Notes under the pieces: model-generated
Told to the model about the DNA's origin: nothing
Seen by the model: only the letters and a program-made list of their open reading frames with translations
Databases searched by the model: none
Virus record (IMG/VR): IMGVR_UViG_3300046458_000091
Location: 18,802 to 82,801 of that record
Reading direction: 5' to 3' (one strand)
Length of the DNA: 64,000 nt
Origin: a virus
In this document: in pieces, positions 19,801 through 51,696 of the stretch
Position numbering within the stretch: position 1 is the first letter of the stretch
Layout of the letters: the number at the start of each line of letters is the position of its first letter
Made by a program: the position numbers and the translations under genes

Positions 19801-20456
19801 TCCAGCACCCATACGGTGCCCAGCTTGCCCGCCCGGTAGTTGCGCAGGACGTAGCCGTTGGCCTTGGCCGCCTTGATGCCCTCCAGCGTGGCCCTGGCCG
19901 CTTCTGCGCCTCGATCTGCCTCACCATTGATGGTGACTGTCGCCGTGAACGAAAGGTGCTGTACGTTGCCCTGGTAGAACCAGACAGACGTATCTGCCCG
20001 GCTGTTGATGGCGTCGGCCTTCAGAGAGCCCGCAGGCGTGAGCACGTCGGCGGCCTTGACCATGTGCGGCTTGTTGTTAGCCGTAGCGATGTCGCGGGCT
20101 TTCCCGGCCTCCCAGGCGGCGGCCTCATCCCGGTCAGAGATGGCCTTTATGGCAGCGCTAAGGCGGTCAATTGCCGCGCCAGCGGCCGGGCTGACGTGCC
20201 CTGTGTTCAGCAGCTTTTCGTACTGGTCCAGGTCAGCCCGGGCCGCTTCACGTTCCGCAATGAGCGGGTCAGTCTCCGGCGCTGGCCGGGCGGCGCCCAG
20301 GATGGCGCGCAGCTCCAGGCCCCGGGCACTGGCCCGCACCTTCTCGATGGCGCTCAGCGTCCCGGCCTCCAGGCTGTCGCGGATCTGCAACAACTCAGCG
20401 CTGAAACGCATTAACTCTAAAGAGTTATAACTCTTTAACTCTATTGTCTCAGTCAT
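16848..20456 (-). CDS. Polyvalent virion cargo protein: LPD3-like domain plus C-terminal adenine DNA methyltransferase (Dar-type)
   Basis: FFPTP, VLEPSAGNG and IIMNPPF methyltransferase motifs; N-terminal helical targeting repeat. Confidence 0.8.
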   Translation of the reverse strand: MTETIELKSYNSLELMRFSAELLQIRDSLEAGTLSAIEKVRASARGLELRAILGAARPAPETDPLIAEREAARADLDQYEKLLNTGHVSPAAGAAIDRLSAAIKAISDRDEAAAWEAGKARDIATANNKPHMVKAADVLTPAGSLKADAINSRADTSVWFYQGNVQHLSFTATVTINGEADRGAEAARATLEGIKAAKANGYVLRNYRAGKLGTVWVLENANNMFLTRAGFEGGANPVFARPDMPPAEAGYDSMIAQQKVLATAFVSWLDTLPYDQRHNQGVVSRKISSTPVGSWARVEKQELGLTLSYRLPGGGNGIRIVGKDFDALVEAARKLAVMPEIEQPAAPSEQEAKGDDSDAADQYAAKAVGFDTFSLYAASRIDKLPLREFQVARAKYKIVECLEKTGRSDRNTLGSLQLQGANAEGPSALAQLRQDGVVLNNLRAQSKPFSLAPGVTLASFVEKGGIVIPLEQAAQQDQTAEEPDVPKPPIELTGTEFGEFPDTPEGKKALRGAAEAYLKAMRGQMVNCPVLGAQVEIRQRGIKETLAFSGNPKKIKLLHAVPQILASATAAEFVQNFKLDKKPQVVGYYNLSSVVALAGESIAVRVVVEKDNMGHLYYDLMIDPPKEKAMLDSTSTALGGRCSPDNYSGHPSGASVEHENADVMLDDMGGLVLNMFIEGELSEPEPAEAPEPPPASDVAHQIIEYTTKRDKVLRGIIRTDLTQAQAKEIDPYTWRMNGGYFIREKYLSGETAHIPAAQAPVVLSPEQQAEQLATAERQAAERAQKALSNQVEKLRAVANKAVETGHAGMNQERNTNTARRAGMAASSVARASYDKAAGQTLNNIADAIENGTAGLLAKLSSRAQLEELQKALHLAQYEADKHLSYSEQLSRKGRPVDDNDLKHVTMPSLITWSERFRKASEAIAKQNPKGNSRLIAALAKMGQRSERFTMNSEDMAITRKANDALKGTGTGSWILEAPMEAIAKTDRLARMGITDVATMQAAVRELIPMMVAKVEEDPIKKAERAIIGQKVGLDFFPTPAHLAQRMATLAGIKKGMRVLEPSAGNGNLADAAKAAGGEVDVIELSDQLREILTAKGYNVVGNDFDTFTPEQPYPAIIMNPPFSNRRDAAHIMRAFGMLAPGGTLVAIAGEGVFFGRDAAATSFRAWLESHDATVEPLEGGTFKDKNLLAQTDAGGRLIVLEK

Positions 20457-22810: not shown

Positions 22811-23524
22811 TCAGGCCGCTACGGCGGGGGTTTGCTCGACAACTGGGCGTTCCACGAACACGAAACGCTCCATGAAATGCTCAAGCGTGTGCAGCTCGGT
22901 GGCCGTCGTGTTGGGGCTGCGGATTTCCACGTCCATACCTTTCAGATTCGCCAGGTCGGAGATGTCCAGGGAATCCAATATCCAGCGGCGCTGCTTATGC
23001 GGCAAGGTGAAGCGCGGGTGCTCGGTGAAGATGTCGCCGATCTTCCAGTTAACCGGCTTGCGCATGTCCGGCTGACGCGGCTTTTCGGCCTGCTCCTGGA
23101 CTGGCACAGGCTCGGCCGCAGCTGCTGGACCCGGGGGCGGTGGAGGCGGCAACAGTTCCGGCTCCACGTCGCACGGCAGATAGACGCCGAACGGAATCGC
23201 CAGGCTCTGCCCACCTGGTGGCGCATGCACCTTCAGCGTGGGCGTCACGTCCGGCACCAGTTCCGGCAGCGCGGGCGGCTCTTCCAACGCCAGCACAGGG
23301 CACGCCAGCAGATCAGCGAACGTCTTGTACAGGCCCGTTGCGGGCTCGATGGGCACGCATACATGGCCTAGGCCTGCGAGGGTCACATTCAGTTCCGCCA
23401 GCAGCCTGGGAAACGATCCAGCGCCGACAATCAGGACCTGCCGGGCCTTCTCTACGTCCTCCTTGGTCTGCACCAGCTCGCGCAACACCTGGTCACAGCC
23501 CCGCGATACCTTCTCTTCGCTCAT
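22811..23524 (-). CDS. Hypothetical protein
   Basis: Start at MSEEK; Pro-rich linker; octamer array upstream. Confidence 0.6.
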   Translation of the reverse strand: MSEEKVSRGCDQVLRELVQTKEDVEKARQVLIVGAGSFPRLLAELNVTLAGLGHVCVPIEPATGLYKTFADLLACPVLALEEPPALPELVPDVTPTLKVHAPPGGQSLAIPFGVYLPCDVEPELLPPPPPPGPAAAAEPVPVQEQAEKPRQPDMRKPVNWKIGDIFTEHPRFTLPHKQRRWILDSLDISDLANLKGMDVEIRSPNTTATELHTLEHFMERFVFVERPVVEQTPAVAA

Positions 23525-23568
23525 ACCCTTCACCTTATGTCTGCATTGGCCACCGTGGCCGGTGTGCA

Positions 23569-23632
23569 AACTCTAAACCTCTAAAACTCTTTAACTCTTT
23601 GGCATGTTTGCAGCCAAAAACTCTAAAACTCC
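23569..23632. repeat. AACTC octamer array
   Basis: aaactctaaacctctaaaactctttaactcttt...aaaactctaaaactcc. Confidence 0.75.
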
Positions 23633-23640
23633 GGGCAATA

Positions 23641-23664
23641 AAAAGCCCGCACGCGGCGGGCTTG
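23641..23664 (-). terminator. Intrinsic terminator
   Basis: AAGCCCGC-acgcg-GCGGGCTT with T-run on the minus strand; same hairpin at about 29932-29957. Confidence 0.75.
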
Positions 23665-23681: not shown

Positions 23682-24128
23682 TCACTTACCGGCCGCCTCG
23701 ACGGCAGCGGCTCTGAATTCTCTTTGAGTCTCGACAGTGCGCCGCAACGCCTCAAGCATCAGCAGGCATTCATAGGCTGGCCGATTGGTTTCAGGGTTAC
23801 TGTAGGCATCCATGAAGCTATTGATCAGGCTGCGCAGCAACCCGCCTGTGTCGTCGTTCTGCGTGATCGACATCACCACGAATTGTTCCAGACGGATAGG
23901 CTCCGACTTCTTGAAGAAATCAAGGCCGACGCGGGTGGCCACCTCAGTCAGGCACCGGCCCACCATCTCGCGCGATTCAGCGGGCGTTAGCCGCGTCCGT
24001 GTCCCGGCTTTTATCATGCCGCCCATTTCAAGGCGGCGGCCAGTGGTAGGGCCGTACGGGACCTTTTCAATCTCGCGCAGCTTGGCCTCCACGGCCTCAG
24101 CAACCTCTACAGTCTTATCCATGCTCAT
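23682..24128 (-). CDS. Hypothetical protein
   Basis: 148 aa, ATGA-coupled to the upstream ORF. Confidence 0.65.
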   Translation of the reverse strand: MSMDKTVEVAEAVEAKLREIEKVPYGPTTGRRLEMGGMIKAGTRTRLTPAESREMVGRCLTEVATRVGLDFFKKSEPIRLEQFVVMSITQNDDTGGLLRSLINSFMDAYSNPETNRPAYECLLMLEALRRTVETQREFRAAAVEAAGK

Positions 24129-24595
24129 GCCGCCTTTGTCGTTGGTTTGAGGCGCTTGGCAGCCACTACGCCGGTTTTGGTCAGTCCGGCCTGGTAGGCC
24201 TCGACGTCGGCGCGGATCACTTCCAGCTCTTGTACGGTGTACACCATCTGGATCGGCTTACCGACCGCATGATAGACGGCGATATCGTCACCGGTTTTCT
24301 TGCGCACGCCGTGAACACGCACGCGGGAGCCGCTGAGCAGCTCGACGCGATTAACGGCGCTGGTGATCTTCAGGTTGCCAATGATGAATTCGATCACGTC
24401 GCCCACCTGGACGTCTTGAATCGGCTTTACCAGCAGCCTGCGCATGTACTCACGCGCCGCACGGCCGCGCCTGGTCAACACGGCGCCGCTGCCCTCACAG
24501 GGAACGCAGGCAAAGCCTTTTCGTTGCCCTGCGCCATTACAGCGCGTGCACGGGTTACTTTCAAACTTGGGTCCTGCAAGTGTTTGGGTCTTCAT
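24125..24595 (-). CDS. Zinc-ribbon hypothetical protein
   Basis: CTRCNGAG...CVPCEGSG. Confidence 0.7.
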   Translation of the reverse strand: MKTQTLAGPKFESNPCTRCNGAGQRKGFACVPCEGSGAVLTRRGRAAREYMRRLLVKPIQDVQVGDVIEFIIGNLKITSAVNRVELLSGSRVRVHGVRKKTGDDIAVYHAVGKPIQMVYTVQELEVIRADVEAYQAGLTKTGVVAAKRLKPTTKAA

Positions 24596-24625
24596 AACGT
24601 TTATCTCTGGCGGTTTTTTAAAACG

Positions 24626-24856
24626 TTACCGGTCGGCCAGCCTTTCCAGGGCGTACTGAACCGGGTATGGGGCTGTTGAGGTTTTCGGGTCACTACTGAG
24701 GTACAAACGCAATACACGCGGGTCAATGCCGATAGTCTGCGCCGCAGCGACTTGGGTAAGGCCGCTGGCGGCGATCAGCTCGCGCAGGTACAACGGGTCA
24801 GGATTATGCAGCCTGGCGTCGGGCTTGACTGTGGCGCCTGCTTTTTTAACCGGCAC
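24626..24856 (-). CDS. aca1: Anti-CRISPR-associated Aca1-family HTH repressor
   Basis: KPDARLHNPDPLYLRELIAASGLTQVAAAQTIGIDPRVLRLYLS...APYPVQYALERLA closely parallels Aca1 as I recall it (PDASNHDPDPRYLRGLL...APYTVQFALECLA); GTG start with GGAG RBS. Confidence 0.85.
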   Translation of the reverse strand: MPVKKAGATVKPDARLHNPDPLYLRELIAASGLTQVAAAQTIGIDPRVLRLYLSSDPKTSTAPYPVQYALERLADR

Positions 24857-25346
24857 TGCTGGGCTCCAGATCGGCTGTAGGCTGGATGATGGTATTGAAG
24901 AGGTCCGCGATTGCTTCAGCACGGACCACCGCCAGCGTTTCAGAACATTCGTCGCAGCCCAGCACGAAAAGACAAGTAACTTCGTTGGTGCGCAAGCGCC
25001 CCTCAGGAACGCCGGAGCCATTCTTGTAATGCGTATCCCAGGTCAAGGCCGTGCTGTGGCATTCGCGGCATTCGCGGATTTTGCCGGTGATTGCATCCAG
25101 CAAACCGCCCCGCGCCTTGAGCACGTCACGTTCTTTGCCAAGTTCAGCATTCTCATGACGCTGCGCGGACATTTGAAGGCGGTGATCAGCAAGCAAAATC
25201 AGTGGATCTGCCACGGCATAGTGTTCTGGCTTGCTGGTTAGGAGTACTTCAATATCTGGCGCCATCTCACCGGTCACGCGATAACCGATTATCTCTGGCT
25301 CTTCCTCGGCGCCCGACTGCTTAAACTTCTGCTCTGGCGTGTTCAT
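24846..25346 (-). CDS. Hypothetical phage protein with CxxC...CxxC zinc ribbon
   Basis: CRECHS...GCDECSETL; immediately upstream of aca1. Confidence 0.7.
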   Translation of the reverse strand: MNTPEQKFKQSGAEEEPEIIGYRVTGEMAPDIEVLLTSKPEHYAVADPLILLADHRLQMSAQRHENAELGKERDVLKARGGLLDAITGKIRECRECHSTALTWDTHYKNGSGVPEGRLRTNEVTCLFVLGCDECSETLAVVRAEAIADLFNTIIQPTADLEPSSAG

Positions 25347-25417
25347 GGTTCCCTCTCTTGGCGCATGTCTAGTACTGACAAACCCCCAATAAAGGGGGTT
25401 TAGGGCGGCAGGCCTGC

Positions 25418-25606
25418 TTAGGCGTAGATTTCGCAGCAGTCGCTGTCATAGCCGTGAGTCATGCGCTCCATCTTGACCTCTTCACACTTGCCGCCTGCCG
25501 CAATGTACTTCTCAGTGGCGCTGGCTTCGCTCTGTGCGGTGATGAACGCTACTACAGCGTTGTCTGCGTTGCGGGCTTTGTACAGGTTGCGGAATGCGTT
25601 CATCAT
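25418..25606 (-). CDS. Small protein, candidate anti-CRISPR/anti-defence
   Basis: 62 aa, AGGAG RBS, first gene behind the operator-containing promoter. Confidence 0.65.
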   Translation of the reverse strand: MMNAFRNLYKARNADNAVVAFITAQSEASATEKYIAAGGKCEEVKMERMTHGYDSDCCEIYA

Positions 25607-25638
25607 TTTTGCTGCTCCTGGGTGCGTTTCGGTGAAGC

Positions 25639-25681
25639 CAATATAGGTAATATTTACCTAATGTACAAGCTTTTATTCAGG
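25639..25681 (-). promoter_or_regulatory. Sigma70 promoter with palindromic operator (copy 1)
   Basis: Minus strand TTGTAC-N17-TATATT with TAGGTAA-N3-TTACCTA in the spacer. Confidence 0.85.
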
Positions 25682-25741
25682 ATAAAGAAAAGCCCGGAAT
25701 AACCGGGCTCCTGGTGCAACACTTTCGCGAGCTGGCAGCGC

Positions 25742-26014
25742 CTACTCTTCCCCGCCCTGTGGCCGACTGGCCGCTCTCGCCTCCCACTCAGCTTTCACAG
25801 CGTCCAGGGGTTTAACCCGGCCCGCTTCGACATCGGCGAGACCTTCTTGCACGGCCTGTACGTGCCACAGGTTGGCTTTAACGTATTCATTGATGGCGCG
25901 CTCAACGTGATAACTGCGTTCACGCTCTGTTGCCTTGCACAGCGCGTCAAGCTGACCGGCCAGTTCTGCCGATATACGTGCAGAGACAACCGCCGTCTGT
26001 TTCTTGGTGGACAT
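25742..26014 (-). CDS. CopG/RHH antitoxin-like protein (orphan)
   Basis: SARIS.EL..QLD.L..ATER.RSY.V..AI..Y...W...V.EGLAD.EAGR; followed by a terminator and no toxin gene. Confidence 0.8.
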   Translation of the reverse strand: MSTKKQTAVVSARISAELAGQLDALCKATERERSYHVERAINEYVKANLWHVQAVQEGLADVEAGRVKPLDAVKAEWEARAASRPQGGEE

Positions 26015-26098
26015 CGAAAAGCCTCATCGTTTCACGAACTTGAAAATAGCACTCTTGCAGCGGCTTGCCCGCCCAGGTACTGCCGGGCGGGCAAGTGC

Positions 26099-26488
26099 TT
26101 AGTTTCTCTGTTCCTCGGTACTGGTCGCCCGCAGCTTCGCTATGACTTCCTGGAAGCTTGAGTGCAGCACCGGCCACCCCTTCCCCGGCGCCAGGGCCGA
26201 CGCATCCAGGCGGCGTATAGAGACGGCAAGGCGTACCCGAGGGTGCACATGTCCGACCGTCGCCAGCCAGCCCGCGCAAGCGACCTCGCCGCCTTCTTTG
26301 GACTGGTGACAGGCGAACAGGCTGTCAGTGTAGGACGGCCCGAACCCTTCGGCGCAGGGGCTGGTTTTAGCCAGGCCCTCAGCCTTGGCCAGGGAGAACG
26401 CCGGGATATCGGTGGCGTCCTTGTCTGTCCGCCACGGGCAGCCTAGGCACGGTTTGGCGATCCTAGGAAACTCGGCTTGATCAAACAT
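26099..26488 (-). CDS. DUF6283-like Cys-rich protein
   Basis: PCLGCPWR...FACH...CAGWL. Confidence 0.7.
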   Translation of the reverse strand: MFDQAEFPRIAKPCLGCPWRTDKDATDIPAFSLAKAEGLAKTSPCAEGFGPSYTDSLFACHQSKEGGEVACAGWLATVGHVHPRVRLAVSIRRLDASALAPGKGWPVLHSSFQEVIAKLRATSTEEQRN

Positions 26489-26741
26489 ACGCTTCAACTA
26501 GGCATTCGCCGCGATGCTTGTATTCCGCGATCCCAGAGCCTACGCGCACGCCGACAGCGGGCTGCATGTACCCATTCGACTGGTCCCAGTCCTCAATGGC
26601 CTGATCAATCTGGGCATTGGTGACGTTGAACCGCTTTGCCGCCTCGCGAAACGTCGGGTAGCTCGCCCCCTTGCCGTCCGCCTCAGCTTTGGCGGCGTAC
26701 TCGCAGGCGTAGTCAAAAAGGGCTTTCGGTGTGATGGCCAT
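26481..26741 (-). CDS. Hypothetical small protein, possible HTH
   Basis: YPTFREAAKRFNVTNAQI. Confidence 0.6.
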   Translation of the reverse strand: MAITPKALFDYACEYAAKAEADGKGASYPTFREAAKRFNVTNAQIDQAIEDWDQSNGYMQPAVGVRVGSGIAEYKHRGECLVEAYV

Positions 26742-26753
26742 GATCTTCCCCTA

Positions 26754-28028
26754 TTACTCTTCAGGCAGGCCCAGGCTGGCAGCCGTGACGCCCAGCAGTC
26801 CCGCCCATTTTTGCCCCATCGTCACGACATACGCAGACTCAGACGGCGAAAGGGTCTCAACGGCTTTTATCGCATAGTCGAGCACGCGATGTCCGGCGTT
26901 GGGGGCAATGATACTCATCTTGCTGCCCGGCTCCAGCAGCTGGCCCTCGACGATCTGCGTGCCGACCCATGTGCGCCCCTGGAACGGCTGGCAGTCAATG
27001 ACGATGCCGTCACGGACATACCACTCTGTGAAGTCCTGGCCACGGTCCTCCAGGGAAATGTGCTGCACCAGCACAGGCGCTGCCGGTGTCATGTCGGCGC
27101 TCGCTGCCACATAGGCCGCGTGCTCAAGGAAAACCATGGCCAGCGGGTCCCACTGATCCAACAGCACAAGGTCTTCCTCAGCCATTTCAGCGCGCGGCGT
27201 CAACAAATACCGGCCCAATTCGTCAAAGTGACACGGCAACGGCGTCTTAGTGGCGAACCGATCATAGGAGGCTGGATTCAGGGTTACCCGCCGATCCTTC
27301 ACCGCCTCGACCGCGTGAACGTTGCACTGCGCGCGTAGGTTCAGGAACCGCTTACGGTAGTCGCTTGAATTAGGGCGCTCGCCCAAACGGCTGCGTACCA
27401 GAAGCTTGAGGCCCAGCCGTTCAAGAATCTTGATGAACTGAGCGCCAAGGCCGGACACATCGACCAGCACAGTGCAGTTTTTGTACTCGTTTGCTGTCGC
27501 GGCTACTACGGCGGCCATCTGCAACAGATCATCAGAAAACGAATCCAAAACGCCCGCTACTTCCTCGACACAGCGGGGCTCTTTGGCCATCCGGTCGCCA
27601 TTGCCAAAGACGCGAAACAATGTCGCCACCGTCCGTTCACGCATCACGCCTGCGCCCACAACAACCGAAATCAGGTAGCCGGATGACTCGCCAGGCCTGA
27701 TAACGCTGCCGGGCTCATGTGACAGGCAAGGCTGCAACTCTTCAGGCCTCAACAGGCTGTTGGCGGCTACTGGCTCCTTGGCCTCCACTGCGGCCTCATC
27801 ATCCGCGACCGGCGTGCAGTGATCCAGGCTGACGCAACCGGATTTGCCCTCTAACCAAATCACAGCGGTGCGGCCGCTCAGTACCTGGGCTTCGCTCTTG
27901 GTCCGGCCGCGAAAGGTTTCGCCCTCGCCCACAATTTCCTCATAGGAAACCATGGCGCCCTCTTTGTATTTCGCGTTCCAGGCATCGCAAATGGCTTGCA
28001 GCTCTGGGTTTGCTTTCACTGTTGCCAT
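26754..28028 (-). CDS. Three-part fusion protein containing a degenerate terminase nuclease domain
   Basis: Central region aligns by eye to the C-terminal half of the 57375-58940 terminase. Confidence 0.8.
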   Translation of the reverse strand: MATVKANPELQAICDAWNAKYKEGAMVSYEEIVGEGETFRGRTKSEAQVLSGRTAVIWLEGKSGCVSLDHCTPVADDEAAVEAKEPVAANSLLRPEELQPCLSHEPGSVIRPGESSGYLISVVVGAGVMRERTVATLFRVFGNGDRMAKEPRCVEEVAGVLDSFSDDLLQMAAVVAATANEYKNCTVLVDVSGLGAQFIKILERLGLKLLVRSRLGERPNSSDYRKRFLNLRAQCNVHAVEAVKDRRVTLNPASYDRFATKTPLPCHFDELGRYLLTPRAEMAEEDLVLLDQWDPLAMVFLEHAAYVAASADMTPAAPVLVQHISLEDRGQDFTEWYVRDGIVIDCQPFQGRTWVGTQIVEGQLLEPGSKMSIIAPNAGHRVLDYAIKAVETLSPSESAYVVTMGQKWAGLLGVTAASLGLPEE

Positions 28029-28086
28029 GGGGCTTTTCCTTTCAATCTCTGGGGTGATTGAACGCCGTTGACCGGCGCCTGGGGCA

Positions 28087-28851
28087 TTACTTTTTCGCCG
28101 GAGCGGCCAGCAAAGGCAGAGCCCCGTTTGTAATGGCGAGCTGAAGCTTGGCAGGATCAGAAAAGAACGAATCCATGGTCCGGGCCATCGTACAAATTGC
28201 CGTCAACGATTCAGCAAAGAACCGAGCCGCTTCCTCGGTGTATGGCATCGAATCCAGGGAGGCGTAGTTTTTCTTCGTCGTGCACTTGATGAAGTGATTG
28301 AGACGAAACGCCCACTCCATTCCCTTGAGCGGGCCATGGTTTCCGGTATCTGCGTATTCAAACTCTGTTTTAGTACTGTTGGCGCGCTTATGAGTCACAC
28401 GATCAACGACTTCAGCGAATAGACCAATCCCAAACGGGCCGTGAGTATCTTGACTGAATGACAGGCGATTACCGACCTTCGACCACTGACCATCCTTTGC
28501 ATTGCTGCCGTTTGGATGGATGGACCCGTCTAAGCACTCCCAGTACGAAACCCGCAGATCGATGTCATAAACAATGACCCGCTCCCGCGTTGTTTCAACG
28601 CTAAGGTGTTCCTGCATCAGTTTTTGAACGTGACGCTTTGCTGTATCCAGGTCGCGGTGCTCGACGCGCCAGTTCTTCCGTGGCTTGGTGATGGCGATGT
28701 TCGCCGTTCGGGTGAGTACCACATCTGCCAGTTCGTCCGGGATGACGATGGCAAACACTCCTTGTCCATCTACTGAACATTCGGCCACGAACTCCATGAC
28801 CTCCCCTGTTGCATTCTCATGCCTGAAGGGGATTTTCGGCATACTCGCCAT
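28087..28851 (-). CDS. Hypothetical protein
   Basis: 254-aa ORF in the early accessory operon, somewhat lower GC. Confidence 0.7.
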   Translation of the reverse strand: MASMPKIPFRHENATGEVMEFVAECSVDGQGVFAIVIPDELADVVLTRTANIAITKPRKNWRVEHRDLDTAKRHVQKLMQEHLSVETTRERVIVYDIDLRVSYWECLDGSIHPNGSNAKDGQWSKVGNRLSFSQDTHGPFGIGLFAEVVDRVTHKRANSTKTEFEYADTGNHGPLKGMEWAFRLNHFIKCTTKKNYASLDSMPYTEEAARFFAESLTAICTMARTMDSFFSDPAKLQLAITNGALPLLAAPAKK

Positions 28852-28926
28852 AATTGGTACTCTCGCAGGTAGTTGTTACTGGAAAAGCCCCAATTAAGGG
28901 GCTTTACAGGGTATATCGGCTGGCGC

Positions 28927-29340
28927 TCAGCGCTTGAAGGCCTCAGCGGCGTGCAGCTCGGCCAGATCCTTGCGTACGGCAGCGATATAGCGAGGATTGT
29001 CAGGATGGGTTGCAATCAGCCGTTCATATTCGGCGCGTTCGTGAGCCATGTGGGCCTTGGCGAATTCCAGCGCCATCGCGTGGGCCTCTTCGTCGGCCAG
29101 ATCGGGCAAGGTGATGGCGGTGCGCTGGCGCGTAATTTCTGCTCCAGCCCAAACTTGTGTCCAAGTGACGTCAGCACCTGGATGGAAGTGGCGACCCATC
29201 ATCACGCCGGTATCTGCATTCACCAGCGTCATCTGCTTAACGCCACACGACATAACCACTGCGCGGGTATAGCTCCAGGTGCCTTTGCTGTCCCAGTCGC
29301 TGAAGTGGATAACAATCTGTCCTTTCTTGAACGCTTTCAT
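28927..29340 (-). CDS. Hypothetical protein
   Basis: Start at MKAFKKG with purine-rich RBS. Confidence 0.65.
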   Translation of the reverse strand: MKAFKKGQIVIHFSDWDSKGTWSYTRAVVMSCGVKQMTLVNADTGVMMGRHFHPGADVTWTQVWAGAEITRQRTAITLPDLADEEAHAMALEFAKAHMAHERAEYERLIATHPDNPRYIAAVRKDLAELHAAEAFKR

Positions 29341-29431
29341 GCTTGCTTCCCCGCTGATGGTGTCCGGCAGCCCTGCTGAGCCCTGTACTGGCAAAGCCCC
29401 AGTTAAGGGGCTGACGCATCTGACCTGTCGG

Positions 29432-29848
29432 TTACCGAAGGCCAACCAGCTTTGCCAGGCTGACCTGCTGTTCTTTGATCCATTCGTCACGCTTGCCGCC
29501 GTTGACTTCCTCCACCACCACCTGCCAATCGGTTGATGCTCTCCACTTGCGGGCCACGGCATCAGCGCCAACCGCACTGCTCGACCAGCCGACATAACCC
29601 CATTCCGACTCAGTAGGCTTTTTGAACAGGACGATATGGGTGTAAGCGTTTTTGCTGTTACGGGTTACGAGCTGGCCGCCTGGCAGCATGTGGGTGAACA
29701 AGGTGGGCTTGACCTTTGGGGCTTCTACCTTTGTGTAATGAACGTCGTAGTAGCCAGTGCCTGCGTACTCAATGCGGGTTTCGCCAACGCACTTATCAGC
29801 GAATTTCTTGGCAGACTTCTGATTTGCGCAGCGTTTGGTGGCGTTCAT
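29432..29848 (-). CDS. Hypothetical protein, candidate anti-defence
   Basis: Start at MNATKR with GGAG RBS; first gene behind promoter copy 2. Confidence 0.65.
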   Translation of the reverse strand: MNATKRCANQKSAKKFADKCVGETRIEYAGTGYYDVHYTKVEAPKVKPTLFTHMLPGGQLVTRNSKNAYTHIVLFKKPTESEWGYVGWSSSAVGADAVARKWRASTDWQVVVEEVNGGKRDEWIKEQQVSLAKLVGLR

Positions 29849-29884
29849 TTCAGCTTGCTCCGGCGTTGTCCGTTTCGATGGGCT

Positions 29885-29927
29885 CAATATAGGTAATATT
29901 TACCTAAAGTACAAGCTTTTATTCAGG
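29885..29927 (-). promoter_or_regulatory. Sigma70 promoter with palindromic operator (copy 2)
   Basis: 42/43 identical to 25639-25681. Confidence 0.85.
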
Positions 29928-29977
29928 TCAACAAAAAGCCCGCACGCGGCGGGCTTCGTCATCATCTTGCCGAACAG

Positions 29978-32005
29978 TCAGAAAGTGCCAGCCGTGGCCT
30001 TGAGCGCATAGGTGGCATAGGCGTCTGAGGCCTCGATAAACAGCTCTCGCAGCTCGCCCTCCCCGTAGGCTGCATAGATGCGTTCCATCTCCTTGAGCAC
30101 GTCCGCAGGCGCGCCCAGATCGGTGGAACCTTCAATGATGCTGTCCAGGTACTCTTTTGCCTTCTGCACTTGCTCATCCTCGGTTGGGTCTGGTGGTGGT
30201 TGTACCGCTTCAGGTTGCGGCGGTGGTTGATCGGTCTCCGGCTCCGACGTTGCCGCCTGGCGCACGGCTTCGGCCGCCTCCTGGGGCGTCTTGCCATCGG
30301 CGAACAGCTGGCCGGTCAATGCTTCTTGAGTCATGGCCACGGCCTGGGCGTCACCATCGGACGCCTCCAGCAGTTCGGCCAGGGTCTGGATAAAGGCCTC
30401 ATCCCACGCCGGGCGCAGCAACACAGGCGCGGGCTCTGGCACTTCAGGTGCAGTCTGTTGCTGATCGGCCAGGGCTTTGGCGTCCGCTTCTGCCTTCGCA
30501 TCCACAGCGGCCAGCCCAGCGCCATCCGTACCGGCCTTGGCCGCCCGCACCAGCGCCCCGCCCACGTCGGCCATGATTTCGGCCTTGGTGACGGCTGCCG
30601 CGTCCAGCTTGAACCCGGCCTTGGTCAGCAGCTCGCGCAGGTCATCCTGGCTGTCGATGCCCTCAATCACCTTGAGCGCGGCGTCGATATCGCCAGCCTT
30701 CAGGCCGTCCGTGAATTTGGCCAGGTCGTCGCGGGTATCTTCCGGTGGCGGTGGCTCGGGGAATAAGCCCGGCTCACCACCTGGCGGCGTGGCCTTTTTC
30801 TTCTCCAGCTGGGCGGTCAGGTCAACAATCTGAGCGTCCAGGTCGGCCAACTGGGCGGTTTTGCTGTCTACGGCCGCCTTCGCCTCAGCCAGCGCCGCGT
30901 CGTCAGCGGCCTTGTTCTCGTTGGCCTTACCGAACTTCGCGCTGTTCTTCTGCACCAGCGCCATGATGCGCCGGGCAACGATACGCGGGTTCAGATCCTG
31001 GCCGCGCTCGGGCGCCACGGTGGCGGTAATGTCCCGCTTGTTCAGTACCCATTTCCAGCTGATCAGTTCATCACTGGCCATGAGCTTGTTCGGCGTGCTG
31101 TCCGGGTTGTGGAAGAACACCGACACGCTCTGGCCGTCATCCATGGAGAACAGCATGCCCACCTGGGTGGTGCCACGGCTCTTGAATGGCTTGCTGACAT
31201 CGACGCTTTCCGCCTTCACGTCGCCGCCCACGTTCTGCATCACGCGCAGCAGCTGGGAGGCCTTGCGGTCGAACTGCTTGTACTCGATCACCATGGCATC
31301 CAGCATGCCGTCGTCGCTCAACTCCTGGGCGATGTCATCCATGGTGGCGCTGTCCATCATCAGGCTGTCGGCGTCATTGCGGCGCAGCTCGTACAGCAGG
31401 TCCGCTACGGTGGTGTCTACCGGCAGGTTGTCGGCGCCCCAGCGCGCGAATACGTCAGTCATGCTCAAGGTCTCATCTTTGGGGATATTGGGGAGGTCGG
31501 CGCTCAGTGGCTGGCTGAGGTCGCCATGCTTGAGCCAGTACTTGAACTGGGTGACGGTGCAGGCAGTCATGCTGCCCAGGCCTTGCCACCCGCGTTCATA
31601 GGAATTCATGTAGGCGTTGCGGGCCTGTTCCTCATCCATGAACCCAAGCATTACCTTGTGCTCATCAAACGAGCCGTCAGCGGCATTCTGGTTGACCACG
31701 TACACGGCCTGGCTCTCTGGCGCCGGGCCAACGTAGATGTCCACCGCGTCACCGTCCGCGCCCTTGGTGCCGTTCACATACCCGTAATGCGCCATACAGG
31801 TGATTGACCACGCCTTACCGTCGCTCTTGCCACGGCGCGGCTGGTGCATCGGTGTCTCGATGGTGATGCGCATCCCGTGGAGCTGCGTGGAGCCCTTGGC
31901 ATAGTTACCGGCCCGGATCTGCTCCGGCGTCGGTTCAGCGGTTGACCCCAAGCCGAACGCGCCCGCGTGTGCGGCACTTTGAAGATTGCTAAAAATGTCG
32001 GTCAT
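29978..32005 (-). CDS. darA: DarA-like antirestriction virion protein fused to an N-terminal inorganic pyrophosphatase-like domain
   Basis: GNYAKG...HYGY..GT.GADGD.VD...FDEHKVMLGF; DGQSVSVFFHNPD...WKWVLNKRDITATVAPE; helical C-terminus. Confidence 0.8.
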   Translation of the reverse strand: MTDIFSNLQSAAHAGAFGLGSTAEPTPEQIRAGNYAKGSTQLHGMRITIETPMHQPRRGKSDGKAWSITCMAHYGYVNGTKGADGDAVDIYVGPAPESQAVYVVNQNAADGSFDEHKVMLGFMDEEQARNAYMNSYERGWQGLGSMTACTVTQFKYWLKHGDLSQPLSADLPNIPKDETLSMTDVFARWGADNLPVDTTVADLLYELRRNDADSLMMDSATMDDIAQELSDDGMLDAMVIEYKQFDRKASQLLRVMQNVGGDVKAESVDVSKPFKSRGTTQVGMLFSMDDGQSVSVFFHNPDSTPNKLMASDELISWKWVLNKRDITATVAPERGQDLNPRIVARRIMALVQKNSAKFGKANENKAADDAALAEAKAAVDSKTAQLADLDAQIVDLTAQLEKKKATPPGGEPGLFPEPPPPEDTRDDLAKFTDGLKAGDIDAALKVIEGIDSQDDLRELLTKAGFKLDAAAVTKAEIMADVGGALVRAAKAGTDGAGLAAVDAKAEADAKALADQQQTAPEVPEPAPVLLRPAWDEAFIQTLAELLEASDGDAQAVAMTQEALTGQLFADGKTPQEAAEAVRQAATSEPETDQPPPQPEAVQPPPDPTEDEQVQKAKEYLDSIIEGSTDLGAPADVLKEMERIYAAYGEGELRELFIEASDAYATYALKATAGTF

Positions 32006-32499: not shown

Positions 32500-33147
32500 T
32501 CACCGACCCAGCAGGGCCAGCACCTCAGCTTTCAGCTGACGCAGCTCGGATGCCGCAGCACAACGCGGGCGAGTATCCAGGGGCGTGCGGCCAATGGCTT
32601 GGGCCTTGGGGTGTTCCTGGCGAAAAGTGAGTGCGGTCTTCAGAACTGGGAGGTTGTAGCCCGCCAACGTTTCGGCAACCGTGTTGCTTAGGGTGGCGCC
32701 CTTAACTGAGCGCGTAATCAGGAAAACCGCCTGTAGCGTCTTGCCTGTGCCTTCCAGTTCCGCCTGCCGGGCTTCGATCATGTCCACCAGATCAGCGCAC
32801 GCCCACACGTCAAAGGGCGCAGGGGACACGGGGATAATCACCAGATCAGCAACCGCCAGCGTCAATTGAGTGAGTTTTGCCGCCTTGGCCAGGCCGTCAA
32901 CAATCACCAGATCGTTGTGCAGCTTGGGGATTTCAGCGACCAGCTGGGACTGCTTGATAGAGAACACGGTCATTGGCTGCTCTTCGTGCGCCTCGCTCCA
33001 CTCACGCAGGCTGCCCTGTACGTCCGAATCGACCAGAACCACGTCCAGGCCATCCAGCGCCATGGCGCGGCCCAGGCCCGTGACTGTGGTGGTTTTGCCT
33101 GCGCCGCCCTTGGGGTTCAACACCGCCATTACCGTCATCTGAAACAT
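32500..33147 (-). CDS. parA: Walker-type partition ATPase (short, type Ib)
   Basis: NPKGGAGKTT, LVDSDVQGS, ADLVIIPVSP; no N-terminal HTH. Confidence 0.93.
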   Translation of the reverse strand: MFQMTVMAVLNPKGGAGKTTTVTGLGRAMALDGLDVVLVDSDVQGSLREWSEAHEEQPMTVFSIKQSQLVAEIPKLHNDLVIVDGLAKAAKLTQLTLAVADLVIIPVSPAPFDVWACADLVDMIEARQAELEGTGKTLQAVFLITRSVKGATLSNTVAETLAGYNLPVLKTALTFRQEHPKAQAIGRTPLDTRPRCAAASELRQLKAEVLALLGR

Positions 33148-33175
33148 CCTTTTGATATATGGGTTCGGCGCAGTG

Positions 33176-33246
33176 TAACTCTAAAACTCTAAAACTCAAT
33201 ACCTCTAAAACTCCTTAACTCATAAACTCTAAAACTCTTTAACTCC
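33176..33246. repeat. Centromere/operator-like tandem octamers upstream of parA
   Basis: About 9 tandem 8-mers TWWAACTC-like. Confidence 0.8.
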
Positions 33247-35468: not shown

Positions 35469-36323
35469 CTAAACAGGCTTCAGAACGGCCCCCAGACGTG
35501 TCAGCGCCGCACTGGTTGTCTCTCCCGGCCTGGCCAACCGGCTCAGTTCGTATGCAGACAGCTGGACAGGCTTCTTGGGCTTCTCAGACCGCTTAGGCTT
35601 GGCGTTAGGCTGTTCAAGCACGAAATCTTTCGGCAGACGCTTGGTGTCAATGCTGAATTTCAGATGCGAGATTTTGCGCCCTGTGCGCATGACTTCGTAA
35701 TCAACCTGCAACGGGCTGTGCTCATTCACCTGATTGATGGCGGGCTCAATGACGTAACGACGCAGGTCAGCCATAAGAGTGTATTTGTCGTGCAGCTGAA
35801 GCCACTTGCGCAGATCCTCCAAGGCAATTTCCCTGGCTCCTACCGACGTGTACTGAATCAGCATTTCAAACAACCGAATGCCGTAGATGCTGGTCATCCG
35901 CGCCACATCTGATAAATGGTATCGCGTGAACTGAGCTTTCAACTCGGTGAGATATGGCAGCATGTCTTTGTTAAAGCGCAGGTTAATCGTGCCTTCCTGC
36001 TCGTTGTACACGATTGTCTGCACCCAACTGGCCTCAAGCGTCTTGGACTTAGGCCCGCCGCCATTGGGCTCTAGGTCTATGCTGACGTCACGTCGGCGCA
36101 GCTTACGGGATGCTTCAAACAGCTCCTTGTACATCGACTTGCTGTCCGAACCGGTCGCCAAGGCAATGTCCGAAACCGGTACGCTGTACATCACTTCGTC
36201 GGTGATCGGCGAACCGCGATCAACCTGCGCAATGCAAGCTAAGATAATGCGCTGCTCTGCTACGGACAGCGTGTATGACGCCTCAATCAGGGCGTTGGAT
36301 TTATAGATATTGTGGTCTGCCAT
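35469..36323 (-). CDS. repA: Plasmid replication initiator, Rep_3 family
   Basis: IYKSNALIEASY.LS..EQRIIL, FTRY.L......SIYGIRLFE, VIEPAINQVN, GRKI; start MADHN. Confidence 0.92.
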   Translation of the reverse strand: MADHNIYKSNALIEASYTLSVAEQRIILACIAQVDRGSPITDEVMYSVPVSDIALATGSDSKSMYKELFEASRKLRRRDVSIDLEPNGGGPKSKTLEASWVQTIVYNEQEGTINLRFNKDMLPYLTELKAQFTRYHLSDVARMTSIYGIRLFEMLIQYTSVGAREIALEDLRKWLQLHDKYTLMADLRRYVIEPAINQVNEHSPLQVDYEVMRTGRKISHLKFSIDTKRLPKDFVLEQPNAKPKRSEKPKKPVQLSAYELSRLARPGETTSAALTRLGAVLKPV

Positions 36324-36360
36324 GGTCTTAATGTGGAAATCCTTTAGCGATCTTCCATGC

Positions 36361-51647: not shown

Positions 51648-51696
51648 TTTAACTCCTTAACTCTTTAGAGTTTTAACTCTTAAACTCTTTAACTCT
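51648..51696. repeat. Octamer array
   Basis: tttaactccttaactctttagagttttaactcttaaactctttaactct. Confidence 0.75.

What the first reader, a model, noticed from the sequence alone, without database searches (positions are those of the whole stretch)
23682..29927. Aca1-controlled anti-defence island: two duplicated promoters and about a dozen mostly unknown genes
Seen: a 43-bp element occurs twice (25639-25681 and 29885-29927, one mismatch), each directly after a terminator. It reads TTGTAC-N17-TATATT with the 17-bp palindrome TAGGTAA-N3-TTACCTA in the spacer, and an Aca1-like HTH gene lies at 24626-24856. Known: Aca1 represses acr promoters by binding inverted repeats (recalled as TAGG-N9-CCTA, 17 bp), and aca genes mark anti-CRISPR and other anti-defence operons. 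Inference: one Aca1 controls two tandem operons, so all ORFs from 29848 down to 23682 are candidate counter-defence genes, including those far from aca1 that adjacency-based mining would miss.
Basis: partly seen in the sequence, partly recalled or inferred. Interest (0 to 1): 0.82.

Follow-up and report, generated by a model that had tools for sequence, protein, structure and literature searches.

The report
Aca1-controlled two-operon island, phage-plasmid
A P1-like phage-plasmid of soil Pseudomonas carries about a dozen mostly unknown genes in two operons that are probably switched off together by one anti-CRISPR-type repressor, a control scheme that is already described, here with a changed DNA recognition site.

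Summary
A 43-bp element occurs twice with one mismatch, each copy just after a terminator. Each reads TTGTAC-N17-TATATT with the perfect 17-bp palindrome TAGGTAA-ATA-TTACCTA in the spacer. These are the only two copies in the 82.8-kb virus record.

The HTH gene at 24626-24856 is an Aca1 homologue (E about 5e-15 to solved Aca1). The palindrome matches the solved JBD30 operator TAGGCAC-AAT-GTGCCTA in length, spacing and outer bases (PMC8633003). It differs only at the two half-site positions that paper calls less specifically read.

Across 25 Aca1/operator pairs the Tyr48 position covaries with the half-site, and this protein alone has Leu. A syntenic relative has two such promoters with its own operator variant.

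The element is a P1-like Pseudomonas phage-plasmid. The island lies in its Dar anti-restriction module, at a hypervariable slot.

No ORF matches a known anti-CRISPR. Leads are an orphan RelB-type antitoxin and a copy of the phage's terminase nuclease domain.

Multi-operon control by Aca proteins was published in 2026 (PMC13551039), and this scan found similar layouts on other DNA. Repression and anti-defence function are untested. Verdict: well-supported new variant of a known kind, moderate interest.

The parts
29928..29956 (-). Intrinsic terminator after the DarA-InPase gene (29978-32005); upstream border of the island
   Evidence: Perfect 8-bp stem, 5-nt loop, then a T-rich tail. Folds at -18.9 kcal/mol. 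Not called by the terminator scanner.
29885..29927 (-). Promoter/operator cassette P_A: A-rich upstream stretch, -35 TTGTAC (29914-29909), operator TAGGTAAATATTACCTA (29906-29890), -10 TATATT (29891-29886)
   Evidence: Same register as relatives' Aca1 promoters.
29432..29848 (-). A1, 138 aa, first gene of operon A; orphan
   Evidence: No significant family or PDB match. Only a weak Mycobacterium phage hit (E = 8e-3). No hit in relatives.
29386..29412 (-). Intercistronic hairpin GCCCC-TTAACT-GGGGC followed by TTTGCCAGTAC (copy 1 of 3)
   Evidence: (family D3). The fold z-score for this copy is not significant.
28927..29340 (-). A2, 137 aa; member of phrog_22363 (unknown function)
   Evidence: E = 1.9e-20. 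No PDB match.
28877..28905 (-). Intercistronic hairpin plus CAGTA (copy 2)
   Evidence: Fold -16.9 kcal/mol, z = -3.95.
28087..28851 (-). A3, 254 aa; unknown. Homologues are hypothetical proteins of Serratia phage JS26 and of Erythrobacter and Loktanella phages
   Evidence: 26-29% identity. No family, PDB or atlas lead.
26754..28028 (-). A4, 424 aa, three parts. The N-terminal small domain (residues 1-80) belongs to a widespread family of mostly stand-alone 70-130-aa proteins. The middle part (99-312) is a paralogue of the C-terminal domain of the phage's own large terminase. The C-terminal part matches phrog_27241
   Evidence: 43% identity, E = 6e-43 to residues 279-497 of 57375-58940. (that protein matches phrog_2, terminase large subunit)..
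26481..26741 (-). A5, 86 aa; unknown. Absent from a variant seen in another metagenome
   Evidence: Contig joint 26464->26757 with 30 other letters between, in run X2.
26099..26497 (-). A6, about 130 aa, DUF6283 (cysteine-rich, unknown function); start codon uncertain (TTG 26497 or ATG 26488)
   Evidence: PF19800, E = 2.5e-12. (phrog_18928).
25742..26014 (-). A7, 90 aa, ribbon-helix-helix protein; orphan RelB/ParD-type antitoxin homologue, last gene of operon A
   Evidence: RHH_1, E = 3.2e-8. (RelB-like, 38 bits, below the 50-bit cutoff). (about 50% identical homologues sit next to RelE/ParE toxins on P. fragi plasmids). No RelE/ParE domain matched in any of the 32 ORF translations scanned against Pfam.
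25688..25712 (-). Intrinsic terminator ending operon A
   Evidence: Fold -20.3 kcal/mol.
25639..25681 (-). Promoter/operator cassette P_B: -35 25668-25663, operator 25660-25644, -10 25645-25640
25418..25606 (-). B1, 62 aa, first gene of the aca1 operon (classical Acr position); orphan
   Evidence: No hit in PDB, phage records or family libraries. Atlas uninformative.
25373..25401 (-). Intercistronic hairpin plus CAGTA (copy 3)
24846..25346 (-). B2, 166 aa. Variable N-terminal half plus a conserved C-terminal zinc-ribbon module (CxEC...CDEC-SETL) found in many phage and prophage proteins
   Evidence: An in-frame 192-nt skip in a variant (X3).
24626..24856 (-). aca1 homologue, 76 aa, HTH repressor; GTG start overlapping the B2 stop
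   Evidence: PDB 7vjn, 7c0g, 7fa3; E = 4e-15 to 8e-15. (phrog_3865). (homologues next to annotated acr genes).
24125..24595 (-). B4, 156 aa, N-terminal CxxC-type zinc motif. Conserved in 7 of the 8 family members examined, so probably backbone and not cargo
23682..24128 (-). B5, 148 aa, unknown; shared with one relative (L066, 50% identity)
23643..23663 (-). Intrinsic terminator ending operon B; downstream border of the island
23543..23626 (-). Array of 8-bp GAGTTWWA repeats ahead of the next operon (orfX 22811-23524, LPD1, LPD3-methyltransferase). It is a genome-wide motif of this phage and not part of the Aca1 circuit
   Evidence: D6. (8 clusters in the 82.8-kb record).

Best explanation
The region is a variable accessory island in a P1-like phage-plasmid of rhizosphere Pseudomonas. 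It sits inside the Dar (injected anti-restriction) gene module, between the DarA-InPase gene and the orfX / LPD1 / LPD3-methyltransferase operon. It consists of two terminator-insulated operons (seven and five genes). Each is driven by a copy of one promoter cassette whose spacer holds a 17-bp palindrome.

Shown here: the cassettes, the palindromes, the terminators, the Aca1 homology, the synteny and the covariation.

Inferred: the Aca1 homologue, third gene of the second operon, binds both palindromes as a dimer and blocks RNA polymerase. When the DNA enters a cell without Aca1, both operons fire. As Aca1 accumulates, it shuts off its own operon and, in trans, the upstream one. In the plasmid-prophage state both are held low.

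The operator is a specificity variant. Its half-site is GGTAA instead of GGCAC, paired with Leu at the Tyr48 position of the recognition helix and loss of Arg59. The 5'UTR hairpin that canonical Aca1 binds is absent, so control is probably at the DNA level only.

The cargo is probably early-acting accessory genes, and at least some are likely counter-defence. This last step is the weakest.
For: 1. Aca1 identity. E = 4e-15 to 8e-15 against three solved Aca1 chains over residues 11-75. Of the residues PMC8633003 reports as binding DNA, Arg22, Gln32, Arg44, Val45, Arg47 and Tyr49 are kept in that alignment.

2. Operator homology. JBD30 IR2 is TAGGCAC-AAT-GTGCCTA, and the paper states that the two G and the A of GGCAC are read specifically and the two C less so. 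Here GG and A are kept, and exactly the two C positions differ.

3. Position. 23 of 45 Aca1 loci carry such a palindrome inside a TTGAC-type promoter upstream of aca1. The scan found 35 palindrome hits against 11.2 in shuffles.

4. Covariation (25 pairs). Tyr at position 48 in 20; Gln in 2 of 2 loci whose half-site has G at position 4; Asn in 2; Leu only here, with the only GGTAA site. In P. fluorescens DR133 a 43%-identical homologue with a different helix goes with a different 7-3-7 palindrome (GGGCCAG-AAT-CTGGCCC) in the same promoter register.

5. No other candidate site in the 82.8-kb record.

6. Conserved architecture. The 85.8-kb syntenic relative has two terminator-preceded promoters with TAGGCACGAC(G/A)TGCCTA in the same register and no RHH match by Pfam (10 ORFs scanned) or by tblastn with A7.

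7. Precedent. Aca1 and Aca2 are predicted to regulate up to three neighbouring operons, and this was shown by experiment for Aca14 (PMC13551039, sections 22 and 24).

8. Context.
- Hdf-like and DarA_N proteins, LPD1, LPD3-methyltransferase and a PacB-type terminase surround the island.
- 8 of the 12 island ORFs have no homologue in the 7 family relatives.
- The same slot in DR133 holds a PAPS reductase, a class that paper lists as an Aca-regulated anti-defence candidate.
- Aca1 homologues lie next to annotated acr genes in 16 of 40 listed plasmid rows and 7 of 40 listed phage rows.

9. Contigs of an independent rhizosphere study cover both promoter copies, with 5-9 differing bases in about 500-bp aligned pieces.
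Against: No experiment and no RNA data bear on this locus.

The -35 hexamer is weak (3 of 6), and the consensus scanner found only one of the two promoters, in another register.

Two of the five residues that PMC8633003 found necessary for reading the core motif are changed: Tyr48 to Leu, and Arg59 lost in a 2-residue deletion. Binding to any site is therefore not guaranteed. Arg59 does not covary cleanly with the base pair it contacts: L049 keeps Arg with GGCAA, and L025 lacks it with GGCAC.

The GGTAA operator was found with no other Aca1 gene. The 6 viral and 11 metagenome pattern hits all lack Aca1, so the pairing rests on a single phage.

The island has its own RHH protein, and the published RHH regulator Aca14 binds AT-rich repeats over the -10.

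No ORF matches a known Acr or anti-defence family. Several ORFs are far larger than typical Acrs. B4 belongs to the conserved backbone.

22 of 45 Aca1 loci showed no palindrome by my strict pattern.
Confidence: 0.7

Rival explanations
1. The ribbon-helix-helix protein A7 (25742-26014), not Aca1, is the repressor of the two palindromes, or a co-repressor. It would act like the RHH-type regulator Aca14, while Aca1 here has lost DNA binding or acts elsewhere.
For: A7 occupies the last position of operon A, the usual place of an aca gene. Aca14 is an RHH protein that binds an AT-rich inverted repeat overlapping the -10 and controls two operons (PMC13551039, section 24). The palindrome here is AT-rich and overlaps the -10 by 2 bases. 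The window's Aca1 lacks Arg59 and has Leu for Tyr48.
Against: A7 has no homologue in any of the 7 family relatives by tblastn. Yet 5 of them keep aca1 together with a 7-3-7 palindrome in the same promoter register. The palindrome keeps the Aca1-type outer TAGG/CCTA and the 17-bp geometry. A7's closest homologues (about 50% identity) are antitoxins paired with RelE/ParE toxins. The promoter of one such module has no match to the palindrome with up to 3 mismatches. I could not compare A7 with the Aca14 sequence, because no tool gave it to me.
Confidence: 0.08
2. The regulatory reading is right, but the cargo is mostly not counter-defence. The island would be a general early or accessory (moron) region, for example competition with other phages, plasmid-state functions or packaging control, that merely uses an Aca1-type repressor.
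For: No ORF matches a known anti-defence family. [quoted passage not shown] A4 carries a terminase-domain copy, which could equally act on packaging or on rival phages. A4's N-terminal domain is a very widespread small domain (678 cluster representatives) that also occurs in a FabD-like protein. B4 and B5 are conserved, not variable.
Against: The island lies inside an anti-restriction module. Its content is hypervariable between close relatives. It contains an orphan antitoxin. A relative has a PAPS reductase in the same slot. Aca1 is strongly linked with acr genes in annotated phages and plasmids.
Confidence: 0.3
3. The second copy is only a scar of a recent duplication or recombination of a terminator-promoter cassette. 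Only P_B, next to aca1, would be a regulated promoter, and operon A would be read from elsewhere or not at all.
For: The two copies are nearly identical (1 mismatch in 43 bp), within a 101-nt repeat of 77% identity, as expected after recent duplication. The scanner called only copy B.
Against: Copy A keeps both hexamers and the whole palindrome; the single difference lies outside them. It is followed at a normal distance by a ribosome-binding site and an ORF. It is preceded by a terminator that would block read-through from darA. The relative independently keeps two complete cassettes with its own operator variant.
Confidence: 0.06

Closest known systems
acrIF1-aca1 operon of Pseudomonas phage JBD30, with Aca1 bound to IR2 (PDB 7VJM/7VJN, 7C0G, 7FA3; PMC8633003)
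   Same: A homologous HTH repressor of about 76-79 aa (E about 5e-15). A 17-bp 7-3-7 palindrome with outer TAGG/CCTA inside the promoter. Arg44, Val45 and Arg47 are kept. The repressor gene lies in the operon it controls.
   Different: The half-site is GGTAA, not GGCAC. Tyr48 is Leu and Arg59 is lost. There is one palindrome per promoter, with no upstream IR1. There is no 5'UTR hairpin. There are two promoters and 12 genes instead of one promoter and 1-3 genes. aca1 is followed by two more genes. No known acr gene is present.
Multi-operon Aca regulons: Aca1 and Aca2 predicted, Aca14 shown (PMC13551039); Aca11 and Aca13 (PMC12282945, which I saw only in the search listing and as cited in PMC13551039)
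   Same: One Aca protein, with its binding motif repeated in the promoter of a neighbouring operon that has no aca gene. The cargo is mostly unannotated. Polyvalent-protein (LPD) and PAPS-reductase contexts are mentioned there too.
   Different: That paper's Aca1 motif is the canonical one. This operator variant may fall below a motif search built on it, which I could not check because the supplements are closed. Here the second operon is upstream, seven genes long, and embedded in a P1-type Dar module.
KorC branch of the kil-kor regulon of IncP-1 plasmids (RK2/RP4)
   Same: It works alike. A small repressor binds operators at several promoters. The anti-restriction gene klcA and the kle genes are strongly induced on entry into a new cell and then repressed (passages of PMC7314908).
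   Different: The element is a conjugative plasmid, not a phage-plasmid. No sequence relation was detected: tblastn of this Aca1 against 72,556 plasmids hit only Pseudomonas (111 records) and Xanthomonas (72 records) at E <= 1e-3. KorC acts together with KorA.
Dar anti-restriction system of phage P1 (Hdf, DarA, DdrA, DdrB, DarB)
   Same: Hdf-like (phrog_1620), DarA_N, LPD1 and LPD3-methyltransferase proteins and a PacB-type terminase flank the island. I saw the literature only as search listings and abstract openings (PMC12810830, PMC5512222).
   Different: From recall, P1 has no Aca1-controlled island between darA and ddrB. DarA here is fused to an InPase domain. The hosts are Pseudomonas.

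Membership tests
Aca1 (anti-CRISPR-associated protein 1) | Sequence homology to JBD30 Aca1 over the HTH domain | tested here: met
   phmmer against PDB: 7vjn_B 4.4e-15, 7c0g_A 7.4e-15, 7fa3_A 8.2e-15, query residues 11-75. phrog_3865, 1.4e-20.
Aca1 (anti-CRISPR-associated protein 1) | Residues that read the core motif in the Aca1-IR2 structure (Arg44, Val45, Arg47, Tyr48, Arg59) | tested here: inconclusive
   3 of 5 are kept (Arg44, Val45, Arg47). Tyr48 is Leu. Arg59 falls in a 2-residue deletion (alignment; residue roles from PMC8633003).
Aca1 (anti-CRISPR-associated protein 1) | 17-bp inverted repeat overlapping the core promoter of its own operon | tested here: met
   TAGGTAAATATTACCTA lies in the spacer of P_B, about 790 bp upstream of aca1. 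Same geometry as IR2 and as 23 of 45 relatives. The half-site sequence is divergent.
Aca1 (anti-CRISPR-associated protein 1) | Conserved 5'UTR RNA hairpin bound by Aca1 (207 operons in PMC13551039) | tested here: not met
   By my reading, about 18 of 22 relatives' leaders show the GCC-A-GCC...GGC-GA-GGC hairpin (MFE about -9 to -17 kcal/mol). The two leaders here fold at -3.8 and -4.1 and lack it.
Aca1 (anti-CRISPR-associated protein 1) | Co-operonic with a known anti-CRISPR gene | tested here: not met
   No ORF matches an Acr in NCBIfam, Pfam, PHROGs or PDB sequences, or lies under an annotated acr gene in the phage records searched with A1, A3, A7, B1 and B2. dbAPIS and Acr-specific databases were not available.
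Aca1 (anti-CRISPR-associated protein 1) | Represses its promoter by binding the inverted repeat | not testable with these tools
   Needs EMSA or ITC and reporter assays.
Multi-operon Aca regulon (PMC13551039) | The same binding motif in the promoter of a neighbouring operon that lacks an aca gene | tested here: met
   An identical palindrome in P_A, 4,246 bp upstream of P_B. The same arrangement is seen in one relative.
Anti-defence island (gene clustering as in PMC7648647, search listing only) | Contains at least one gene of a validated anti-defence family | tested here: not met
   Inside the island there are only leads: an orphan RelB-type antitoxin and a terminase-domain paralogue. Known anti-restriction homologues (Hdf-like, DarA_N) flank the island but are not in it.
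Aca14 (RHH-type Aca), considered for A7 | Homology to Aca14, with an inverted repeat of its own in the promoter | not tested
   No tool gave me an Aca14 sequence. A7's nearest homologues are RelE/ParE-linked antitoxins. No second kind of palindrome is shared by the two promoters.
P1-like phage-plasmid | PacB-type terminase, Rep and Par plasmid functions, Dar proteins, and relatives kept as plasmids | tested here: met
   TerL is 36-37% identical to PacB of RCS47, SJ46 and D6. Rep3 and ParA are present. DarA orthologues lie on 81-95-kb non-mobilizable plasmids of P. atacamensis, P. putida and P. fluorescens. An integrase is also present at 3833-5053, so the lifestyle is not settled.

The most novel reading that the evidence does not exclude
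The island is a cassette-exchange platform with switchable repressor specificity. New genes would be recruited under the resident Aca1 by copying a terminator-promoter-operator cassette. Individual genes would be punctuated by a family-specific hairpin-CAGTAC element: 10 clear copies, all on the coding strand, found only in these islands. Within one phage-plasmid family the Aca1/operator pair has changed specificity at least twice: GGCAC, GGTAA and GGGCCAG-type sites, with recognition-helix residues Tyr/Asn, Leu and a wholly different helix. The driver could be escape from cross-repression: an Aca1 made by a resident element or by the host would otherwise silence the incoming element's entry burst.
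Probability: 0.25. Interest if true: 0.65.

Novelty: new variant of a known kind. Interest (0 to 1): 0.45.

Why it matters
If the circuit works as inferred, it has three uses.

First, it gives a natural specificity variant of Aca1, a Leu48 protein paired with a GGTAA operator, next to the solved Tyr48/GGCAC complex. It is a compact test case for how small HTH repressors re-target, and a possible orthogonal repressor/operator pair for engineering.

Second, it flags eight orphan genes, plus an orphan antitoxin and an inactive-looking terminase-nuclease domain, as candidates for counter-defence screens in plant-associated Pseudomonas. Cultured relatives exist: plasmids of P. fluorescens DR133, P. 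atacamensis SM1 and P. putida.

Third, operator variants like this one may escape motif models built on the canonical Aca1 site, so motif-guided mining may undercount Aca regulons.

It does not reveal a new mechanism. Self-repressed entry bursts and multi-operon Aca control are already in print.

Tried and rejected
Searches that led nowhere.
- Megablast of the island against phages and plasmids: no match.
- The exact operator plus -10 pattern in IMG/VR gave 6 hits, all in AT-rich contigs without Aca1.
- The operator in its promoter register in metagenome contigs gave 11 hits, none with Aca1. Nine are low-GC contigs (24-28% G+C), and the 60%-GC contig L076 drives an unrelated 61-aa HTH.
- Rfam on the island found only sub-threshold terminator-like hits.
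- PDB sequence searches of B1, B2, A1, A2, A3 and A4 gave nothing at a meaningful E-value.
- PADLOC gave only one weak hit, A5 to Cas5d at E = 0.0021, which I treat as chance.
- Atlas look-ups of A3 and B1 were uninformative.
- A profile of A4's N-terminal domain has no Pfam family and matches only an accessory domain of PDB 3g87.
- B1 against the first small ORF of the DR133 island: no similarity, so my idea that they are homologues is rejected.
- orfX as a single query found no related loci; a two-sequence alignment did.
- The genome-contig scan gave only 3 loci.

Ideas weakened or rejected.
- Covariation between Arg59 and position 5 of the half-site does not hold.
- Homology between KorC and Aca1 was not detectable by tblastn.

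Limits of particular calls.
- My first regex for the hairpin element undercounted. It was replaced by a brute-force scan.
- The crude ORF clustering (51 ORFs, 33 families, 25 singletons) missed A1 and aca1 in the window. I rely on the tblastn counts instead.

Sequencing runs.
- No RNA holder was listed.
- The parts of the island without contig cover in runs X2-X4 (about 28134-28895) say nothing.
- Only the best-supported differences were printed (62 more were not shown). I therefore cannot state that the operators are unchanged in those variants.

Supplements of papers were closed. The supplementary figures and tables of PMC13551039 may list this IMG/VR record or its family among predicted multi-operon Aca1 loci. 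I could not check this.

In print: searches and my reading of PMC13551039 found no description of a GGTAA-type Aca1 operator or of Aca1 islands in P1-like Pseudomonas phage-plasmids. Subscription journals are not covered by these searches.

Full report
**1. Observation**

Read on the minus strand, the window has two copies of a 43-bp element, at 29927-29885 and 25681-25639. They differ at one base: 29908 T against 25662 A. The repeat finder extends the pair to 101 nt at 77% identity.

Each copy reads TTGTAC, then 17 nt, then TATATT. The spacer holds the perfect palindrome TAGGTAA-ATA-TTACCTA, which overlaps the first two bases of the -10.

With up to three mismatches the window has 3 matches against 0.39 expected (0 of 100 shuffles reach 3), and two of them are exact. 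The full 82,801-bp virus record to which the window belongs holds only these two. It has no canonical GGCAC-N3-5-GTGCC site and no other AGG-N9-CCT palindrome with more than 5 of 7 arm pairs.

Each copy follows a terminator. The terminators at 25712-25688 and 23663-23643 were called by the scanner. The hairpin at 29956-29936 with its T-rich tail was not called, but it is a perfect 8-bp stem folding at -18.9 kcal/mol.

The -35 is weak (3 of 6 to TTGACA). The scanner found only copy B, in another register. The promoter call therefore rests on homology with relatives (section 3).

**2. The repressor**

The ORF at 24626-24856 (76 aa, GTG start overlapping the stop of the upstream ORF) matches three solved Aca1 chains at E = 4e-15 to 8e-15. 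It also matches phrog_3865.

tblastn finds homologues in 128 phage records, 127 of them Pseudomonas phages. It finds homologues in 183 plasmid records: 111 Pseudomonas and 72 Xanthomonas. An annotated anti-CRISPR gene lies at the match in 7 of 40 listed phage rows and 16 of 40 listed plasmid rows.

**3. The operator**

Passages of PMC8633003 give JBD30 IR2 as ATTAGGCACAATGTGCCTAAT. That is a 17-bp core TAGGCAC-AAT-GTGCCTA with half-site GGCAC. The paper states that the two G and the A are read specifically (by Arg47, Arg44, and Val45/Tyr48). The two C contribute less, and Arg59 contacts the last pair.

The site here keeps the length, the 3-nt centre, the outer TAGG/CCTA, and the GG and A. It differs at exactly the two C positions, giving GGTAA.

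In the alignment, Arg22, Gln32, Arg44, Val45, Arg47 and Tyr49 are kept. Ser42 is Asp, Tyr48 is Leu, and Arg59 falls in a two-residue deletion.

I fetched 45 Aca1 loci: 42 from IMG/VR (of the 43 loci, L064 was left out) and 3 from genomes. I scanned them for such palindromes and found 35 hits in 621 kb against 11.2 in shuffles. 23 loci have the palindrome inside a TTGAC-type promoter upstream of aca1, mostly 217-1,800 bp away. The other 22 loci gave no hit with this strict pattern.

I then tabulated 25 protein/operator pairs.
- The Tyr48 position is Tyr in 20 pairs, all with A at half-site position 4.
- It is Gln in both loci that have G there (GGCGC, GGCGT).
- It is Asn in 2 pairs.
- It is Leu only in this window, which is also the only GGTAA site.

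Arg59 shows no clean covariation, so I make no claim from it.

**4. The element and its family**

The window encodes:
- an integrase, a T4-like portal and a small terminase;
- a large terminase 36-37% identical to PacB of the P1-like phages RCS47, SJ46 and D6;
- Rep3 and ParA;
- an Hdf-like protein, a DarA_N-InPase protein, an LPD1 protein and an LPD3-methyltransferase protein.

DarA orthologues lie on non-mobilizable plasmids of 81-95 kb in P. atacamensis SM1, P. putida and P. fluorescens DR133, two of them from rhizosphere. The source of the window is probably a rhizosphere metagenome. This is a P1-like phage-plasmid family of Pseudomonas.

I compared eight members: the window, L010/L019, L066, L068, L069, L070, SM1 and DR133.
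- The stretch between the darA stop and orfX varies from about 2.1 kb (SM1) and 2.4 kb (L070) to 6.5 kb.
- aca1 is present in 6 of 8.
- Two promoter/operator cassettes are present in 2 of 8: the window and L010.
- One cassette is present in 4 of 8, and none in 2 of 8.
- Of the window's 12 island ORFs, only the A4 N-terminal domain, aca1, B4 and B5 have homologues in any relative. Eight are unique.

L010 has two terminator-preceded TTGACC-N17-TATTAT promoters with TAGGCACGAC(G/A)TGCCTA in the same register. It has no RHH match, by Pfam on 10 of its island ORFs or by tblastn with A7.

DR133 has TTGACG-N17-TAAAGT with a different 7-3-7 palindrome, GGGCCAG-AAT-CTGGCCC. That palindrome is unique in the 10.6-kb locus. 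Its Aca1 homologue is 43% identical, with a different recognition helix. In the same slot it carries a PAPS reductase and a homologue of the A4 N-terminal domain directly upstream of aca1.

Within each genome the two cassettes resemble each other more than they resemble the other phage's cassettes.

**5. How it most likely works**

The shown and inferred steps are set out under Best explanation.

Two points differ from canonical Aca1 loci. First, both leaders lack the GCC-A-GCC...GGC-GA-GGC hairpin that I see in about 18 of 22 relatives' leaders and that PMC13551039 shows Aca1 binds. Their MFE is -3.8 and -4.1 kcal/mol, against about -9 to -17 for the relatives. Second, aca1 is the third of five genes, not the last.

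Terminators insulate the two operons from each other and from the flanking Dar genes.

**6. The cargo**

No ORF matches a known anti-CRISPR or anti-defence family.

There are three leads.
- A7 is an RHH protein whose closest homologues (about 50% identity) sit beside RelE/ParE toxins on small P. fragi plasmids. The Pfam scans of 32 ORF translations from the window matched no toxin domain. A7 is therefore an orphan antitoxin.
- A4 residues 99-312 are 43% identical (E = 6e-43) to residues 279-497 of the phage's own large terminase. In that alignment the Asp of the terminase's IIVDVA strand aligns with Val in A4. That this Asp is catalytic is from recall of terminase nuclease domains.
- DR133 carries a PAPS reductase in the same slot.

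B2 carries a zinc-ribbon module common in phage proteins. A6 is DUF6283.

**7. The RHH rival**

PMC13551039 (section 24) shows that Aca14, an RHH protein, binds an AT-rich repeat over the -10 and represses two operons. I therefore weighed A7 as the binder.

Four points count against it.
- A7 is absent from all seven relatives, while five of them keep aca1 with a palindrome in the same register.
- The palindrome is of the Aca1 type.
- A7's family is toxin-linked.
- One such toxin-antitoxin promoter has no similar site.

I could not compare A7 with Aca14 itself.

**8. Comparison with what is known, and novelty**

Aca1 autorepression is textbook (PMC8633003, PMC9410906).

PMC13551039 (September 2026; I read sections 19 and 22-24) predicts that Aca1 and Aca2 regulate up to three neighbouring operons. 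It shows this for Aca14 and proposes motif-guided discovery of anti-defence genes.

KorC of IncP-1 plasmids is an older functional analogue (PMC7314908, passages). I found no sequence relation to it.

This scan has reported similar duplicated operator-promoters with Aca1-like repressors on other DNA (e1-5354769, e1-6055292, e1-358105, e1-3635231).

What is new here:
- the GGTAA/Leu48 specificity variant, found with no other Aca1 gene in the collections I searched;
- at least three operator types within one phage-plasmid family;
- the placement inside a P1-type Dar module;
- the missing RNA motif;
- the family-specific hairpin-CAGTAC punctuation.

**9. Verdict**

The regulatory reading is well supported but untested at the bench. 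The counter-defence reading is plausible but circumstantial. This is a new variant of a known kind, of moderate interest (0.45).

Noticed in passing
window 26754-28028 (A4) and 57375-58940 (large terminase): The middle of A4 (residues 99-312) is a paralogue of the C-terminal domain of the phage's own large terminase (43% identity, E = 6e-43). The Asp of the terminase's IIVDVA strand is Val in A4. A4 has no ATPase part and is flanked by two unrelated domains. It could be a decoy or inhibitor for terminase-sensing defences or for rival phages' packaging.
   Followed up: partly
window 29386-29412, 28877-28905, 25373-25401; also L010 3882, 4130, 4993, 5327; L068 6808; L083 4625, 5662: A hairpin GCCCC-loop-GGGGC followed by TTYGYCAGTAC sits between cassette genes. 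There are 10 clear copies, all on the coding strand, and only inside the islands of this phage-plasmid family. Other Aca1 loci show background counts (19 forward, 22 reverse). The function is unknown: attenuator, processing site or recombination site.
   Followed up: partly
window 62853-62910 (+), 51641-51690 (-), 33159-33240 (-), 23543-23626 (-), 20395-20444 (-), and three more in the first 18.8 kb of the record: Arrays of 8-bp GAGTTWWA repeats lie at eight places in the phage, several of them just ahead of operons such as ParA and orfX. In the relatives L010, L066, L068 and L069 a similar array lies directly upstream of the -35 of the Aca1-controlled promoters. DR133 has an analogous array of a different 8-9-bp unit. 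It is probably the site of a phage-wide regulator or a partition protein.
   Followed up: partly
window 25742-26014: An orphan RelB/ParD-type RHH antitoxin, with no toxin domain matched in the 32 window ORFs scanned. Homologues of about 50% identity pair with RelE/ParE toxins on small Pseudomonas fragi plasmids. It is a candidate anti-toxin-antitoxin or anti-addiction gene.
   Followed up: partly
leaders of Aca1 loci L023-L061: Most canonical Aca1 promoters are followed, about 10 nt after the -10, by CCATGCCAGCCAC...GGCGAGGC. This is the 5'UTR hairpin that PMC13551039 reports as bound by Aca1. The relative L010 has a simpler GCCG-N7-CGGC hairpin, and the window has none.
   Followed up: yes
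L083 (P. fluorescens DR133 plasmid CP048608.1) 4677-5441: A PAPS-reductase family gene lies between DarA and an Aca1 homologue, behind a promoter with its own 17-bp palindrome. This matches the class of Aca-regulated anti-defence candidates discussed in PMC13551039.
   Followed up: partly
window 24846-25346 and 26481-26741, in metagenome runs X2 and X3: Closely related variants from another rhizosphere study show an in-frame 192-nt skip in the N-terminal half of B2 (25122->25315). They also show A5 replaced by 30 other letters (26464->26757).
   Followed up: no
window 3833-5053 (+) together with 35469-36467 (-) and 32500-33147 (-): The record has both a tyrosine integrase and Rep3/ParA plasmid functions. 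No tRNA gene was found in the window. Whether this member integrates or is kept as a plasmid is open.
   Followed up: no
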